Origin: Prorocentrum cordatum
Taxonomy: Eukaryota
Direction of reading: 5' to 3'
Assembly (NCBI GenBank): GCA_963575745.1
Contig: CAUYUJ010000199.1
Location: forward strand, 62,001 to 116,926
DNA: 54,926 nt
In this document: positions 14,374 through 50,538 of the stretch, piece by piece
Layout of the letters: the number at the start of each line of letters is the position of its first letter
Numbering within the stretch: the first letter of the stretch is position 1
Notes under the pieces: generated by a model
Told to the model about the DNA's origin: nothing
What the model saw: the letters and a program-made list of their open reading frames with translations, nothing else
The model's database searches: none
Position numbers and translations under genes: made by a program

Positions 14374-14504
14374 GCTTGGGGCTCGGAGGAGGGGCTCGTC
14401 GATGCTCCTCAGGCCCCTCCGTGGTCGCCCCCCTGGCGCTCCTCGTGCGCCCAGGCGCTGCTGGCGCCCAGAAGCGGCTTCTCCCCCGATTCAGCGTTCC
14501 TGAT

Positions 14505-15046
14505 TATCGGGGGCGGAAAAGGTCAGGAGGAGAAAAAAACACACAGGCACAAGTCATCGTCGGTCCCTAAGAAAATATGGTAAAATATGGGAATTGGGCG
14601 GGAAGACAAAAACCCAGAAAATGTATGAAAATATGGGGAATCGTTTTATTTGTGTGTATTTATTTGTGTGTCCCAAGGCCCCTTCAAAAGAGGGTGGTGA
14701 TGACTAGAGGGGGGTGGATATCCTGGCGCCGGCCATGATATCTCCGCAGATTTCATGGCGCCTCTGCTTATTTCATTACGCCCCAGGCCCCCCCGCTGGG
14801 CCGCGCACATGCCGCCAGTCATGATTTGCACCCCCCCCTCTTGGACACCCCCCTCTTGGCCGCTCCCGAGATTGGGGGAACAAGAAGTGACATAATCATA
14901 ACAACTCGGAGGTTCGCGCGGATTTCTCGGATCGGCGCTGGACCCCCCTCCCTGGCGCGCGGAGCGCGCCAGGGGCCCCCGCGCCGATCCGAAAAGTCCG
15001 CGCGGACCTCCGAGTTTTTATGTTTATGTCATTTTTTGTTCCTCTA
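14505..15046. mobile_element. Three-level nest: fold-back MITE > family D > family C
   Basis: Outer element ta..ggggaacaa...ttgttcctcta with TSD ctgat (14500-14504, 15047-15051) and hairpin body 14875-15046. Family D at 14507-14869 (TSD gatta/gattg). Family C at 14523-14686. Confidence 0.8.
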
Positions 15047-16029
15047 CTGATGGCAGCGCCTCGATTGTATCTTGGACCGGCGCCGGGCCCCTTGGGGCGG
15101 CGCTGCAGCGCGCGAAGAGCGGCGCCTCCGACGCTCGGCAGCGGGGCCGGCCCACAGCTCGGAGGCTCCGCAGGAGTTGGAGCGGCCGGATTGTGCGGCT
15201 CCGTTCGGTCTGGGGTCGAGCAGTGGCGAAGCGTCCTGGCGGAGTCTGTCTTGTTTGAACACATAGTTTGTTCCTAAGACCCGTTGTTTTGTTCTTAGAA
15301 ACTTGCTGGGTTCTAGGAACATTTCGTGGTAGGACTACAGGAATGCCGGGACGGTTGGTCCCTGCTCAATGGGGGGCGCTCAGCGGGCCTCTTGGGCCGT
15401 CGACGGCCCTGAGGGAGGTTGTCAAGGCCTGCAGGGGTCCACGCATCGAGCAAATTGGAGCGGCAGATGTCTGGAAGAGGGGGCGTGGGAGGGGCAGGCC
15501 CTCTCAGAAGGCGGTGGCGCTTCTCAGAAACCCTCGCGCCTTCTGAGAGGTTTTCTGTCTTCGTGAAGGTTCCAAGAACTTCTCGGAAGGCCAGAGGGCT
15601 TCTAACAAGCCCTGCCGCCTTTGAGAAGGCTTGTCCCCTCTCGCTTCCTCATTGTGCTCGCCACCGAGACGCGTCCATTGGACCCAGTAATCGATTTGGG
15701 GATCGGCTTGGGCTGCTTTCTCTCACCGCGAGCGCAGAGAAGCGTGGCTGTTCGTTCATCAGTTTCCCCGCTTAGAAAAATGTGCGGGGTTTCCTGGTTT
15801 GCGCTTGCACGTTAAGGATGTGCAGCATACATTTTTCGGCGTCGTTGTCACCCTGGCTCCGCACGTTTAGTCTCTTGCTTCCCCCGCCCCCCCCGAACCC
15901 TCTTTACAACGCGTGCCCTTGCATTCGCAGTTGTGTTTTAGTCTCGACGGGTTGTTTTCTCCCACCGCGAGCGCGGAGACACGTGGCTGTTCGTTCATCA
16001 GTGCCCCCGCTCAGAAACATGTTCGGTGT

Positions 16030-16270
16030 GTCCTGACTTGAGCCTCTTCGGGCCCTCCAGGAGGACCTCTCGCAGGCCTTTTGGTCTGTCTTGGGGGCCT
16101 CTTTGGAGGCCTTTTGGGCCGTCGTGGTGGCTTCTTGGGCGGACTTGGAGACATCTTGGACCCTCTTGGGCCGTCTTGGAGGCCATCTTGGACCATCTTA
16201 GGTGGACTCGGAGGCCATCTCGGTTGTCTTGAAGGCATCATGGAGGCCATGTGGGGCCATCTTGGGCGTG
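16030..16270. repeat. Degenerate ~11-bp-period repeat (gcctcttgggg-like)
   Basis: Recurring tcttggaggcc/tcttggg. Similar tracts at ~28860-28940, 32915-33012, 39820-39900, 47408-47505 and 52110-52270. Confidence 0.7.
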
Positions 16271-16519
16271 AGCGGCATTGACGTGTGCAGTTTGCGGCCC
16301 CTTCGGCGGGGCCGGCGCGCTGGTTCGAAGCCCCAAAGGGGGGGGGTTCTAGAATAACCCAAACCGTCTAGGCTCTGGCACGTCTGGCAGCCCTGTGGCA
16401 AGCCAACAGGGGGCTGCGGATGACGGGAAGCGTCTTGGAGGTACGAGAAGCGAGCTGGACGTTTTGGCTGAATCTGCGACATATTCAAACATCTCTTACT
16501 AATATGGGGTAGCTGACTG

Positions 16520-47880: not shown

Positions 47881-49084
47881 GGAGCGGCGGAGGCGGAGAT
47901 GGGGTAGGGCGGGAAGGAGGTACGGGAGGAGAAGGTGGAGAGAGGCGGAGGGGAAGGGCGAGGGACGCGCAGGTGGTCGGAGGTGGCACTGCAGCGCTGG
48001 GCCCACATGTCCCCGTCGTCGTTGTCGATTTTTTGTTGGCGCCCCCACGAGCACGGCGCCATACAGGCGTGGCACTTGGGCACCGCGAGGAGAATCGACA
48101 GGGGATATGGCTGGCCCGCTCGTGCCAAGCTTGCGGGGGTGCTTCAGGCTGTTTGCCTGCATGGCTGCTCAGACTCTCTGCTGATCACCACCCACCAAAC
48201 CACCCCAACGCAACCCGAAGGCTTCAATTTGCCCTCCATTTCCAGTGGGGGGTGGGGGTTGGGGAACATCGAAAAAACACATATGGAGCCCATACCCCCC
48301 CCCAACCCGAAACTCGGGTCTTCGGGTAGGGTTTGGGTGGTCTGGTAGGTAGTCAGTTGAAAGCTCAGTGGTCACTTTGGTATAGCAGGCGTGGCAGCCG
48401 GGCTCCCCGGGGAGCAGCCTCTGGGAGGTATGACCCTTGCCCGTGCGCGCCCAGCTCGTGAGGAGGCTTGGGGAGGTCTCGGGCGGGTTGCTGTTGCTAC
48501 CCGCCAGAACGCTTCGGAAATTGATAGACCTCCTACCCTGACACGTCGATCAGCGAATCGGCCGTTTCCGGTTTTTGCGAGGGCGTCGCGGCCGTCATTT
48601 TTGCGGGCCCAGGTCCGTCGGTTTCGGTTTTAGGCCGTTTTCACGAAAGGGTGGTTTATTAAAGGGAGGTTTGTCCACCGCCGATGTTTTCTTTTGGAGA
48701 GCCACATGATCACTGCGATGTAGCCGCTGCGGTACAGCCGAGGTCGGTTCGTAGGTCGACCTGCAACATCAAGGGTAACCTTTGTGACATGAGCATGGCG
48801 ACCCATGCCTTCTACACTCCTGGCAATGTTGCCCCCGGAATGAACGTGTGTCCTCTTGCGTGCCATCTCGACTCCACCCCGACTGTACTTGGGCATCCCA
48901 AGGCGGAGCCGCCATGAGATATCACATTTGCCCGTTCGCGTGTAGATTGTGGGGATGTTTGGGACCCTTCGCCAGTTGGGAGTCCCCAGGCTTGCTTCCT
49001 TCCTCCGTGTTTCCCGCCCTCTTCCCCCTACTCGCATTCAGAACCAAGCCGACACTGATTTGTCATATGCGGATTCATGCACGC

Positions 49085-49292
49085 AGACCCCGCGCACACT
49101 GCTCATTCGCACTCAGACTCACCCACACTCAGGCTCACCCATATTCGTATGACTCGCACTCAGACCACACGCGCTCATATTCACTGACACTCAGACTGTC
49201 TCAGACTCCCTCATGCTCAGGCTCACTCGCACTCAGACCTACTCACAGTCAGTCTCACTCACACTAAGACCCACTGCGCTCAGACCGCTCAC
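49085..49292. repeat. Degenerate (ACTCAG/ACTCAC)n simple repeat
   Basis: actcagactcacccacactcaggctcac... Confidence 0.8.
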
Positions 49293-50025
49293 ATTCCAAT
49301 GCAGAGCACTTCGCCACCCCAAGGGGGAACCGCCCAGGAAAATTATGCTTGCTCTTTCGCGTGCAGATTGCGGGCATGTCTCATGCGAAACCATAGTCTT
49401 TTGGCTCCCCAGGCCCTTTCTGTTCCAGAGCCCCGTGCCACCGCGACATAGCAGGCATATCACTCGGGCACCCCAATGGGGAGCCGCCAGGTAACGCGCA
49501 GTCGCCACAAGCTACGATTCTTCCACTTTGACACTCTGACCGGGAAATGAGATGCACATGTTCGGATGTCCGCGTCGAATAATTCTGTTGCAAATTTCTC
49601 TCGTAAGGACCTGTAACCATTCAGAGCAGGAGTCACACTGGGCCTTCGCGGACAATCGCGTAAATCTACGAACCAGTTCGTGGTTGGGGGTTAATGTTGA
49701 TTTCGATGTTCCTAGGGTGAACACGTAACAATTGAACTCCGAGCCTGTCTTGCTCTTGGGGTCGTACTGCCCTCTCGGGCAACTTTGAGCTTCTCTGGTG
49801 AATCGGGCAGGATGTGCGACTGTACCCAGGATGTACGACTGTGTTCATAATCAGCCGTGACAGAATCTCAAACCCTAACACATTCCACATTGTGCACTGC
49901 AGCTCGTGTGCTCGCGCCCCGCAGCCGTCCGCAGTCGCACCGGAGTCTTCCGGGGCAGCGAGCACGCGAGCAGTGATGCGCACCAGAGAGTGTTCGGGAG
50001 CATGGCCCGTCTCCCCCTTCGAGGG

Positions 50026-50538
50026 TTCAGTCGGGTACGTCCCTCTTCGACTAGACATAATCAGGGGCGGAAAAGAGGGGGGTGATGACGAGGGGGGGGT
50101 GGATATCATGGCGTGGGCCATGATACCTCCCCAGATTTCGTGGCGCCTCTTCTTATTTCATTACGTCCCTGGCCCCCCCGCTGGGCCGCGCACATGCCGC
50201 CAGTCATGATTTGCACCCCCCCCTCTTGGACACCCCCCTCTTGGCCGCTCCCGACGTAAGAGTGACCCTTCGCCGGAGTGACCTTTGGTGCGCGCTCACT
50301 GGGGTCCCCCGATCGCCGTGCTCGGTGCGATAGTAGCGTCTTGCGCGCTTGTGTTTGGCCCCCTCGCGCCCCCAAAAAAGCCGCGCACCAAAGGTCACTC
50401 TTGCCCAGGGTCACTCTTACGTGCAGCCGACGAGCCTCTCCAGGCGGAATGTTCAATTTTTTTGACAATGCTGAAGAAGGTTTCATTTCTTTTATTTTCC
50501 GTCCTTAATCCGCCTGCAGGGGGACATGCCCGACCCAA
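50026..50538. mobile_element. Three-level nest: ttaagtcggg family > family E (50051-50426) > family D (50061-50254)
   Basis: Family D TSD cataa/cgtaa; removing it restores ctagacgtaagagtgacc, matching 21944. Family E TSD tcga/ccga. Confidence 0.8.

What the first reader, a model, noticed from the sequence alone, without database searches (positions are those of the whole stretch)
14500..50538. Elements repeatedly insert into the terminal inverted repeats of other elements
Seen, each supported by a TSD and usually by an uninterrupted copy in this window: family D 2 bp inside the fold-back element (14505/14507); family C 16 bp inside D (14523; empty site at 50061-50080); family C 4 bp inside F (30125/30129; intact F at 48185); family D 10 bp inside E (50051/50061; intact E at 21944); family E ~25 bp inside the 8-bp-TSD family (21944, 50051); and the 37995-38200 element in the right TIR of the 3-bp-TSD MITE. 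Only one MITE-in-MITE nest with a resolved TSD (37740) is central. Inference: insertion is biased to element ends. This could reflect recruitment by end-bound proteins, cruciform or accessible DNA, or a safe-harbour strategy that disables or hitch-hikes on the host.
Basis: partly seen in the sequence, partly recalled or inferred. Interest (0 to 1): 0.75.

Follow-up and report, generated by a model that had tools for sequence, protein, structure and literature searches.

The report
Jumping genes landing on each other's ends
This stretch of repeat-rich protist DNA is a pile of tiny hairpin-shaped jumping genes, and newer ones have landed at or just inside the ends of older ones more often than chance predicts, although one window is too little to prove a genome-wide rule.

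Summary
Six have target-site duplications (TSDs), four of them with an uninterrupted sister copy. Only the 37996-38199 element lacks a clear TSD. I found one more near-end nest, two exact abutments and one deeper nest.

It weakens to 0.14 / 0.05 if the two boundary cases are dropped.

Contigs of one unrelated low-coverage run show these families are very high copy. Of the 11 between-family junctions shown, 7 lie 28 nt or less from a host end, but most rows were not shown.

No genome is held, so the genome-wide test could not be run.

The nests do not trace to one composite. The E-in-O nest may even be two hits at the same site.

The cause is unresolved. Guest and host termini are unrelated. 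All hosts are strong fold-backs. A test for unpaired target sites was inconclusive.

Earlier notes of this scan report other transposon-on-transposon targeting elsewhere in this genome.

Verdict: real, modestly supported, a variant of known MITE nesting.

The parts
14500..15051 (+). Triple nest. Fold-back MITE FB (14873-15046, TSD CTGAT at 14500-04 and 15047-51). D1 (14506-14869, TSD GATT) is inserted at FB's left boundary. C2 (14523-14686, TSD AAAGG/AAAGA) is inserted 12-17 nt inside D1.
   Evidence: FB fold z -17
21918..22270 (+). O-1, a member of the 8-nt-TSD family (TSD ATCCAGAG/ATCTAGGG). It carries intact E1 (21940-22126, TSD CTCTA/TTCTA) 17-22 nt inside its left terminal repeat.
50026..50538 (+). 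O-2 carrying E2 (50047-50430) at the same site as in O-1. D2 (50060-50254, TSD CATA/CGTA) lies 9-13 nt inside E2. D2 is uninterrupted and shows the empty site for C (AAAGA, 50072-76).
   Evidence: high copy in run X1
30120..30764 (+). F locus (TSD GTGGT/GTGTT). C3 (30129-30291, TSD TTCAC/TTCAC) spans F's first 4 nt. F itself is internally rearranged: partial F at 30293-30412, about 180 nt of other DNA, then F at 30594-30759.
48185..48355 (+). Intact F (TSD GCTGA/GTTGA). It is the reference for the empty C3 site.
   Evidence: depth about 12,000 in X1
37594..38240 (+). Nest in M'. The left 56 nt of H (37594-37649) comes first. M' then starts at 37651 and carries P (37739-37913, TSD ATT, central) and Q (37996-38199, about 30 nt from M's right end, TSD unresolved). 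The right terminus of M' is degenerate.
37177..37375 (+). Intact M copy (3-nt TSD AGT). It is the reference for the P and Q sites. Other copies are at 22338-22534 (TTA) and 10039-10224 (TCT).
32160..32430 (+). T-b carrying O-e (32305-32407, TSD CACTGAAG/CACTAAAG) 21 nt from T's right end. This near-end nest is not in the finding's list.
8985..9149 (+). C1, a copy of guest family C in apparently unique DNA (TSD GTCTT/GTCTT). With C4 (51082-51231, GCTAC/GCTTT) it shows that C does not need a host element.
51378..51570 (+). O-a, an intact O member (TSD CGCGAGCC/CGCAAGCC). In run X1 its right end is the boundary for 106 contigs with unlike flanks. It is also joined to C starts and to an O start in other copies.
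7027..7478 (+). Two unrelated terminal-inverted-repeat elements abutting with no spacer: G1 (7027-7206) and G2 (7207-7478). No TSD resolved.
13370..13699 (+). A 330-nt chimeric fragment made of P, the middle of M and the left part of Q. It is 98.8% identical to 37740-38072, is flanked by the 5-nt TSD GCCTT and lies inside element Y. The empty Y site is GTCTT at 15248-52. This shows that a piece of a composite was re-mobilised.

Best explanation
The region is a graveyard of at least a dozen families of 100-270-nt non-coding DNA transposons. These are MITE-like, and probably the kind called introner-like elements in dinoflagellates. They make 3-, 4-, 5- or 8-nt target duplications.

Shown: the nests are ordinary staggered-cut transposition events, ordered in time by their TSDs. 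Most later arrivals sit either on the junction between an older element and its flank (0-5 nt) or 9-30 nt inside its terminal repeat.

Inferred: the bias is a property of the resident element's end, not of any one transposase. I think two effects add up. First, the junction and its duplicated target remain a good target and are hit again. Second, the hosts are long fold-backs whose stem base lies at the element's ends. Distorted or extruded DNA there, or proteins sitting on it, attracts strand transfer by unrelated transposases. Composites formed this way can later be copied as units.
For: - TSDs with empty sites: C in D, D in E, C at F, P in M and O-e in T.
- Order of events: the host's TSD copies lie outside the guest (FB/D1 and F/C3).
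- Position test: P = 0.005-0.018 against a uniform null.
- A crude whole-window expectation gives 0.4-0.8 boundary hits against 4 seen, and 0.9-1.9 hits 6-30 nt inside against 5 seen. Deeper hits (2) match or fall below expectation (2.2-4.6).
- Guests of four TSD lengths show the same habit.
- Seven of the eight hosts folded are strong fold-backs (z -5 to -18); T2 is weak (-2.6). The guest family C is not a fold-back (z -0.2) and none of its 4 copies is interrupted.
- Run X1: the families reach depths of 10^3-10^4, against 0 over the unique DNA at 49611-50051. Of the 11 between-family junctions in the rows shown, 7 are 28 nt or less from a host end. Examples are T end|TT|F start, O end|G|C start, O 19 nt inside|C start and D 28 nt inside|O start.
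Against: - There are only 8-9 events. Without the two boundary events, P rises to 0.14 (summed position) or 0.048 (count).
- Element ends were set by eye from 2-5 copies.
- The 30-nt cut and the element count (45-65) are my choices.
- Predicted unpaired positions are not clearly preferred. Four of 8 sites are paired, and the combined P is 0.50 (maximum) or 0.03 (mean).
- Two of 4 C copies sit in apparently unique DNA.
- Three of the 11 X1 junctions are 43 nt or more inside a host, or at an unknown place. Only 15 of 71 joint rows and 12 of 44 'letters between' rows were shown, chosen by support.
- Nothing here shows cruciform extrusion or protein binding.
Confidence: 0.45

Rival explanations
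1. Chance plus freedom of annotation. In DNA this crowded with short elements, a handful of near-end nests arises without any preference. My choices of ends, events and cut-offs make it look significant.
For: Dropping the two boundary events gives P = 0.14. The crude whole-window P values move from 0.0006 to 0.008 and from 0.003 to 0.046 when the assumed element count goes from 45 to 65. A strict automatic TIR+TSD scan recovered only 6 candidates, so most ends are hand-set.
Against: Near-end nests are harder to detect than central ones, not easier. HSP chaining alone found P in M and the unexplained 687-nt extra stretch in V, and none of the near-end nests. Independent contigs of run X1 show the same kind of junction at other loci. 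More abutments turned up wherever I looked (G1|G2, R|H).
Confidence: 0.2
2. Hot-spot re-use (double insertion). Certain sites are attractive to many transposons. The first insertion duplicates the target, and the second hits one of the copies, so elements end up end to end. The resident element plays no active part.
For: D1's target GATT overlaps FB's TSD CTGAT by 3 nt. C3's target overlaps F's TSD by 1 nt. X1 junctions have 1-6-nt spacers between two ends. The mechanism is documented for P, hobo and R1 (PMC5932611, passages read).
Against: It cannot explain the five nests 9-30 nt inside hosts (C2, D2, E, Q, O-e). The elements involved are unrelated, have different TSD lengths and share no target motif: C uses GTCTT, AAAGA, TTCAC and GCTAC; D uses GATT and CGTA.
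Confidence: 0.15
3. Amplification bias (hitch-hiking). Nests form anywhere, but composites that keep the host's outermost nucleotides are copied with the host. A few old near-end composites are then over-represented.
For: Composites are copied as units. The A dimer occurs at two loci at 92% identity. A 330-nt P+M+Q fragment was re-inserted with a TSD. The heterologous and end-to-start junction contigs shown for X1 have depth 4.8-18.6, while depth is 0 over the unique DNA at 49611-50051.
Against: In the window, D and C each sit in two different hosts, so these are separate events. A central guest would be carried along just as well, so no end bias follows. Boundary guests lie outside the host's terminal nucleotides, or disrupt them, and would not be carried. 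The two O hosts of E differ far more (61% in the interior) than the two E copies (88.6%) (Fisher P = 3e-7).
Confidence: 0.1
4. Break capture. Failed or partial excision, or structure-specific cleavage of the palindromes, breaks DNA at host ends. Free transposon DNA is then captured during repair.
For: Several host ends are damaged next to nests. T-b has lost about 12 nt of its terminal repeat beside O-e. The right terminus of M' is degenerate. F is rearranged. O-b is truncated and flanked by a 40-nt direct repeat.
Against: The nests carry clean TSDs of the length typical for each guest family, also seen at non-nested copies (C: 5 nt at all 4 copies; O: 8 nt at O-1, O-a, O-c and O-e, weak at O-2). 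That is the mark of transposase strand transfer, not end joining.
Confidence: 0.1

Closest known systems
MITE multimers and nested MITEs of rice, maize and mosquitoes (Jiang & Wessler 2001, known to me only as cited in the review PMC5172404; passages read)
   Same: Short non-autonomous TIR elements insert into one another far more often than into other repeats, and the nests arise from independent insertions.
   Different: The passages I read say nothing about a preference for the host's ends. The original paper is not held, so it may already report positions within hosts. Here the guests are of several TSD classes and the organism is a protist.
Double insertion at one target site (P element, hobo, R1; McGurk & Barbash 2018, PMC5932611; passages read)
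   Same: A second insertion into the duplicated target gives end-to-end elements with TSD-length spacers, like D1/FB, the R|H abutment (4-nt spacer) and the X1 junctions with 1-6-nt spacers.
   Different: There the two elements belong to the same family and have a strong target motif. Here they are unrelated, and five nests lie 9-30 nt inside the host.
IR-targeting by IS30, also IS911 (PMC9333248; passages read)
   Same: Integration next to an inverted repeat of a resident element creates abutted ends. The X1 junction O end|G|O start looks like such an IR-IR junction.
   Different: IS30 targets its own IRs through its own transposase, in bacteria. Here guests and hosts have unrelated termini.
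Introner-like elements of dinoflagellates (Roy et al., bioRxiv 10.1101/2020.10.14.339549; passages read)
   Same: Many co-existing families of short TIR elements with TSDs of 3, 4, 5 and 8 nt. The same four TSD lengths are seen here.
   Different: That work concerns intron creation, and the word 'nested' does not occur in its text. Whether the elements here are spliced was not tested.
LINEs that insert at one base of another transposon's end hairpin, noted earlier in this scan on other pieces of this genome (e1-7629813, e1-7627475; unchecked here)
   Same: Transposon-on-transposon targeting at a terminal hairpin in the same genome.
   Different: Those are retrotransposons with single-nucleotide site specificity. 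Here DNA transposons land over a 0-30-nt zone, except possibly E in O.

Membership tests
MITE (miniature inverted-repeat transposable element) | Short (under about 800 nt), with no coding capacity | tested here: met
   Elements are 103-272 nt long. None of 15 long reading frames of the window matched Pfam, and there were no Rfam or tRNA hits.
MITE (miniature inverted-repeat transposable element) | Terminal inverted repeats | tested here: met
   Met for D, E, F, FB, M, O, P, Q, T, H, G1 and G2. Not met for guest family C, which ends TCAG...CTTCA, has no clear TIR and folds at z -0.2.
MITE (miniature inverted-repeat transposable element) | Target-site duplication of a fixed length per family, and empty sites | tested here: met
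   C: 5 nt at 4 of 4 copies, matching 5/5, 4/5, 5/5 and 3/5. O: 8 nt, matching 7/8 three times, 6/8 once and 4/8 once. M: 3 nt at 3 copies. Empty sites exist for C2, D2, C3, P and O-e.
MITE (miniature inverted-repeat transposable element) | High copy number | tested here: met
   Summed contig depth in run X1 is 10^3-10^4 over F, T, D, E, O and C, against 0 over the unique DNA at 49611-50051. 9352 contigs were laid. Depth is not a copy number.
Dinoflagellate introner-like elements | TIR element with a 3-, 4-, 5- or 8-nt TSD in a dinoflagellate genome | tested here: inconclusive
   The TSD lengths match. The taxon rests on earlier notes of this scan only. A spliced-leader motif recalled from memory found no match.
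Dinoflagellate introner-like elements | The element is spliced out as an intron, using its ends or TSD as splice sites | not tested
   No RNA run was found or laid. No gene was recognised in the window.
hAT superfamily (for family O) | 8-nt TSD | tested here: met
   O-a CGCGAGCC/CGCAAGCC; O-c TGCCAGCG/TGCCGGCG; O-e CACTGAAG/CACTAAAG; O-1 ATCCAGAG/ATCTAGGG.
hAT superfamily (for family O) | hAT transposase in an autonomous partner | not testable with these tools
   No genome is held and there is no transposase in the window.
PIF/Harbinger-Tourist (for family M) | 3-nt TSD, typically TTA/TAA (recalled) | tested here: inconclusive
   The TSDs are 3 nt long but read TTA, AGT and TCT.
Double insertion at one target site | The second element lies in the TSD of the first, and a TSD is kept in the junction | tested here: inconclusive
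   D1's target overlaps FB's TSD by 3 of 4 nt, and C3's overlaps F's by 1 of 5 nt. Five nests lie deeper.
IS30-type IR-targeting | The element integrates next to an IR of its own family | tested here: not met
   Guests and hosts in all window nests belong to different families with unrelated termini. Only one O|O junction in X1 fits.

The most novel reading that the evidence does not exclude
Several unrelated transposase systems in this nucleosome-poor protist genome home to the stem base of resident fold-back elements, so that composite 'Russian-doll' elements build themselves and are then co-mobilised. Within this, E would be a site-specific parasite of one pentanucleotide (CTCTA/CCTCT) in the terminal hairpin of family O. 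It would have hit two O elements independently, because their interiors are only 61% alike while the E copies are 88.6% alike.
Probability: 0.2. Interest if true: 0.75.

Novelty: new variant of a known kind. Interest (0 to 1): 0.48.

Why it matters
If the end bias is general, resident fold-back elements act as landing pads. That would explain how very large protist genomes build dense composite repeats and new mobile chimeras. It would also give a sequence-level read-out of DNA structure or accessibility in chromosomes that lack normal nucleosomes. If it is not general, the window is simply a well-resolved example of ordinary MITE nesting.

Tried and rejected
- Whole genome: none is held.
- Sequencing runs: only one run was offered (X1), with a 0.05 share of words.
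- Read laying: the tables are cut. 56 joint rows, 32 'letters between' rows and 892 loose-end rows were not shown, so no full distribution of junction places could be made. Parts of the stretch without cover are not used as evidence.
- Earlier findings by place (near) and by sequence (D2, M): nothing. A word search returned only prokaryote MITE notes.
- Strict automatic TIR+TSD scan: 6 candidates, and of the elements discussed only M at 22338.
- HSP chaining for insertions: found P in M, a 687-nt extra stretch in V (33013-33699) that looks like ordinary non-repeat DNA and not a transposon, and spurious O pairings.
- Homology of the spacers between the A dimers and the C nests: none; 183 of 300 shuffles scored as high.
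- Unpaired-site test: inconclusive.
- Spliced-leader motif: no match.
- Pfam on 15 frames, Rfam and tRNA scans: nothing.
- Jiang & Wessler 2001 is not held. PMC3903597 holds nothing on positions of nests within TIRs in the passages found.
- Literature searches for an end preference of nested MITEs and for nesting in dinoflagellate introners gave no paper that states one. This covers only the open-access library.
- I first took TCGAT/TCGAC to be E's TSD. I rejected it because these bases are part of E's inverted repeat, and the TSD is CTCTA/TTCTA.

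
Full report
WHAT THE WINDOW IS

The window is 57-66% G+C. It holds many tandem arrays and (GGA)n tracts. It has no recognisable genes: 0 of 15 long frames matched Pfam, and there were no Rfam or tRNA hits. Earlier notes of this scan call the genome a dinoflagellate (Prorocentrum). 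I did not verify this, and a spliced-leader motif recalled from memory had no match. No whole genome is held.

THE ELEMENTS

Self-comparison, inverted-repeat seeds and reading of the sequence give at least a dozen families of 100-270-nt elements.
- C has 4 copies. It ends TCAG...CTTCA, has no clear inverted repeat and makes a 5-nt TSD at every copy (GTCTT/GTCTT, AAAGG/AAAGA, TTCAC/TTCAC, GCTAC/GCTTT).
- D has 2 copies that are 93% alike, with a 4-nt TSD.
- E has 2 copies that are 88.6% alike.
- F and FB make 5-nt TSDs.
- M has 5 copies or fragments, and 3-nt TSDs (TTA, AGT, TCT) are read at three of them.
- O has 7 copies or ends. Its TIR is TTAnGTCGGGC.. and it makes an 8-nt TSD, matching 7/8 at three copies.
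- P makes a 3-nt TSD.
- Q, T, R, H, G1 and G2 complete the list.

This set of TSD lengths (3, 4, 5, 8) is the one described for dinoflagellate introner-like elements (preprint 10.1101/2020.10.14.339549, passages).

Seven of the eight hosts I folded are strong fold-backs as single strands (z -5 to -18 against 25 shuffles). T2 reaches only -2.6, and the guest family C is at -0.2.

CHECK OF THE LISTED NESTS

All seven are there.
- FB, D1 and C2. FB's two TSD copies (CTGAT) lie at 14500-04 and 15047-51, that is, outside D1, so FB came first. D1's TSD GATT (14502-05, 14870-73) covers the last 3 nt of that TSD and FB's first base. C2 lies 12-17 nt inside D1. D2 shows the empty site.
- F and C3. F's TSD (GTGGT/GTGTT) encloses C3, whose TSD TTCAC is 1 flank base plus F's first four bases. 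Intact F starts with the same TCAC.
- E2 and D2. D2 lies 9-13 nt inside E2 (CATA/CGTA; intact E1 has CGTA).
- O and E. E lies 17-22 nt inside O's left terminal repeat in both O-1 and O-2. The bases TCGAY that look like a direct repeat belong to E's inverted repeat. The TSD is CTCTA/TTCTA in O-1.
- M', P and Q. P is central in M' (ATT/ATT). Q lies about 30 nt from the right end of M', and I could not resolve its TSD.

FURTHER EVENTS

- O-e sits 21 nt from the right end of T-b, with an 8-nt TSD and two uninterrupted T copies for comparison.
- G1 and G2, two unrelated TIR elements, abut with no spacer.
- R's end and H's start are 4 nt apart, and M' starts about 55 nt inside that H copy. Only one junction survives there.
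- A 330-nt piece of the M'/P/Q composite has been re-inserted at 13370-13699 with a 5-nt TSD inside another repeat, whose sister copy shows the empty site.

INDEPENDENCE

D occupies two different hosts, and so does C. These are separate events.

The two E-in-O nests are at the same site. The E copies are 88.6% identical. The O termini are 81.5% identical, which is not significantly lower (P = 0.2). The O interiors are only 61% identical, giving Fisher P = 3e-7 for E against all of O.

Two readings are possible. E may have hit the same site in two diverged O elements. Alternatively, O interiors turn over fast; many X1 contigs break off at the inner edge of O's terminal repeat (loose ends at 51521 and 51526, 69 and 57 contigs). 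I count the event once.

IS IT MORE THAN CHANCE?

With positions taken as the TSD midpoint and hosts of 148-197 nt, Monte Carlo against uniform placement gives these results:
- 8 events: P = 0.005 and 0.002.
- 9 events, including the one-junction M'-in-H case: P = 0.018 and 0.009.
- Without the two boundary events: P = 0.14 and 0.048.

I also made a crude expectation for insertions falling anywhere in the window, assuming 45 or 65 elements:
- Within 5 nt of an end: 0.4-0.8 expected, 4 seen.
- 6-30 nt inside: 0.9-1.9 expected, 5 seen.
- Deeper: 2.2-4.6 expected, 2 seen.

The excess is thus specific to ends. It rests on few events and on my own annotation.

Detection does not favour ends. Chaining of BLAST matches found P in M and the unexplained 687-nt extra stretch in V, and none of the near-end nests.

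EVIDENCE FROM OUTSIDE THE WINDOW

Two metagenome scans found nothing.

One public run (X1, contigs, 547 million letters, 0.05 of the sampled words) was offered. I laid it on 47700-52100 at 80% likeness, and 9352 contigs were laid. Summed depth is 0 over the unique DNA at 49611-50051, and 10^3-10^4 over F, T, D, E, O and C. The families are therefore very abundant in that sample.

In the rows shown (15 of 71 joints and 12 of 44 'letters between'), I count 22 distinct junctions:
- 9 lie inside one family.
- 2 are end-to-start of one family (O|O, F|F).
- 11 are between families.

The 11 between-family junctions break down as follows:
- 5 join two annotated ends within about 11 nt: T end|TT|F start; O end|G|C start; O end and T end followed by a C start after about 11 and 6 nt; and E end followed by F, which I infer from 30 unmatched letters.
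- 2 join a guest end to a point 19 nt (O) or 28 nt (D) inside a host.
- 1 has two ends 31-34 nt apart.
- 3 are 43 nt or more inside a host, or at an unknown place.

The rows are those best supported, not a random sample. The heterologous and end-to-start junction contigs shown have depths of 4.8-18.6, so some of these junctions are themselves multi-copy.

CAUSE

- Cognate transposase. A transposase sitting on its own ends (the IS30 model; PMC9333248, passages) does not fit, because guest and host termini are unrelated.
- Target re-use. Re-use of a duplicated target (PMC5932611, passages) fits the boundary class only.
- Structure. All hosts being fold-backs fits a structural cause. My test of whether target sites sit at predicted unpaired positions was inconclusive: 4 of 8 did, with combined P = 0.50 or 0.03 by the two statistics.
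- Hitch-hiking. This is real as a consequence (composites get copied), but it predicts no end bias.
- Break capture. This is contradicted by TSDs of the normal family length.

I therefore hold, at about 0.45, that ends of resident fold-back elements are preferred targets through their junction and structure. The rivals are listed with their weights.

WHAT IS KNOWN

MITEs nesting in MITEs is long known (review PMC5172404 citing Jiang & Wessler 2001, passages; the original is not held). My searches of the open library found no statement of a cross-family preference for host ends. The dinoflagellate introner preprint does not mention nesting. Earlier notes of this scan report LINEs that target another transposon's end hairpin elsewhere in this genome. 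I did not check them.

VERDICT

The finding is a new variant of a known kind. It is of moderate interest and would be settled by one genome-wide count.

Noticed in passing
13370-13699 and 37740-38072: A 330-nt chimeric piece (P, the middle of M and the left part of Q) is 98.8% identical at both places. At 13.3 kb it is flanked by a 5-nt TSD (GCCTT) inside repeat Y, whose sister copy at 15248-52 shows the empty site. One end is 1 nt inside P's terminus and the other lies in the palindromic centre of Q. A composite fragment was therefore mobilised by non-standard ends.
   Followed up: partly
14144-14375 and 29726-29955: A tandem dimer of a 113-nt fold-back unit (family A, 92% alike between the loci) lies 125-170 nt upstream of both nests that contain C (C2, C3), in the same orientation. 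The spacers are not homologous. I have no explanation.
   Followed up: partly
30764-30997: A truncated O copy (30804-30957, no right terminal repeat) is flanked by a 40-nt direct repeat that is 95% identical. That is far longer than the family's 8-nt TSD.
   Followed up: no
run X1 laid on 51377-51570: One contig joins O's right end to O's left end with a single G between them. This gives a perfect palindromic end-to-end junction, like the abutted ends of a tandem dimer or an excised circle.
   Followed up: no
14506-14516, 50060-50070, 51734-51745: Families D and T share their first 11 nt (ATCRGGGGYGG), and E and Q share CGTAAGA in their terminal repeats. Each pair may use related transposases.
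   Followed up: no
26001-28000: A purine-rich strand-asymmetric tract (GC skew 0.54, AT skew 0.50) made of GGA/GAG-type repeats. Similar tracts recur at about 7.4-8.4, 12.6-13.2, 17.6-18.0, 38.3 and 53.8-54.9 kb.
   Followed up: no
23760-24960 and 40880-41980: Two related tandem arrays (77-nt and 89-nt units, about 77-82% alike) lie 16 kb apart. There are also a 29-nt array at 44.6-46.0 kb, a 153-nt array at 46.5-47.2 kb and a 90-nt array at 4.6-6.6 kb.
   Followed up: no
33013-33699: Repeat V is contiguous at 47359-47736. At 32866-33907 it is split by 687 nt with an open frame on the + strand (32873-33553, 226 aa) and no Pfam match. This may be an exon-like insert, or V may be two separate elements.
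   Followed up: partly
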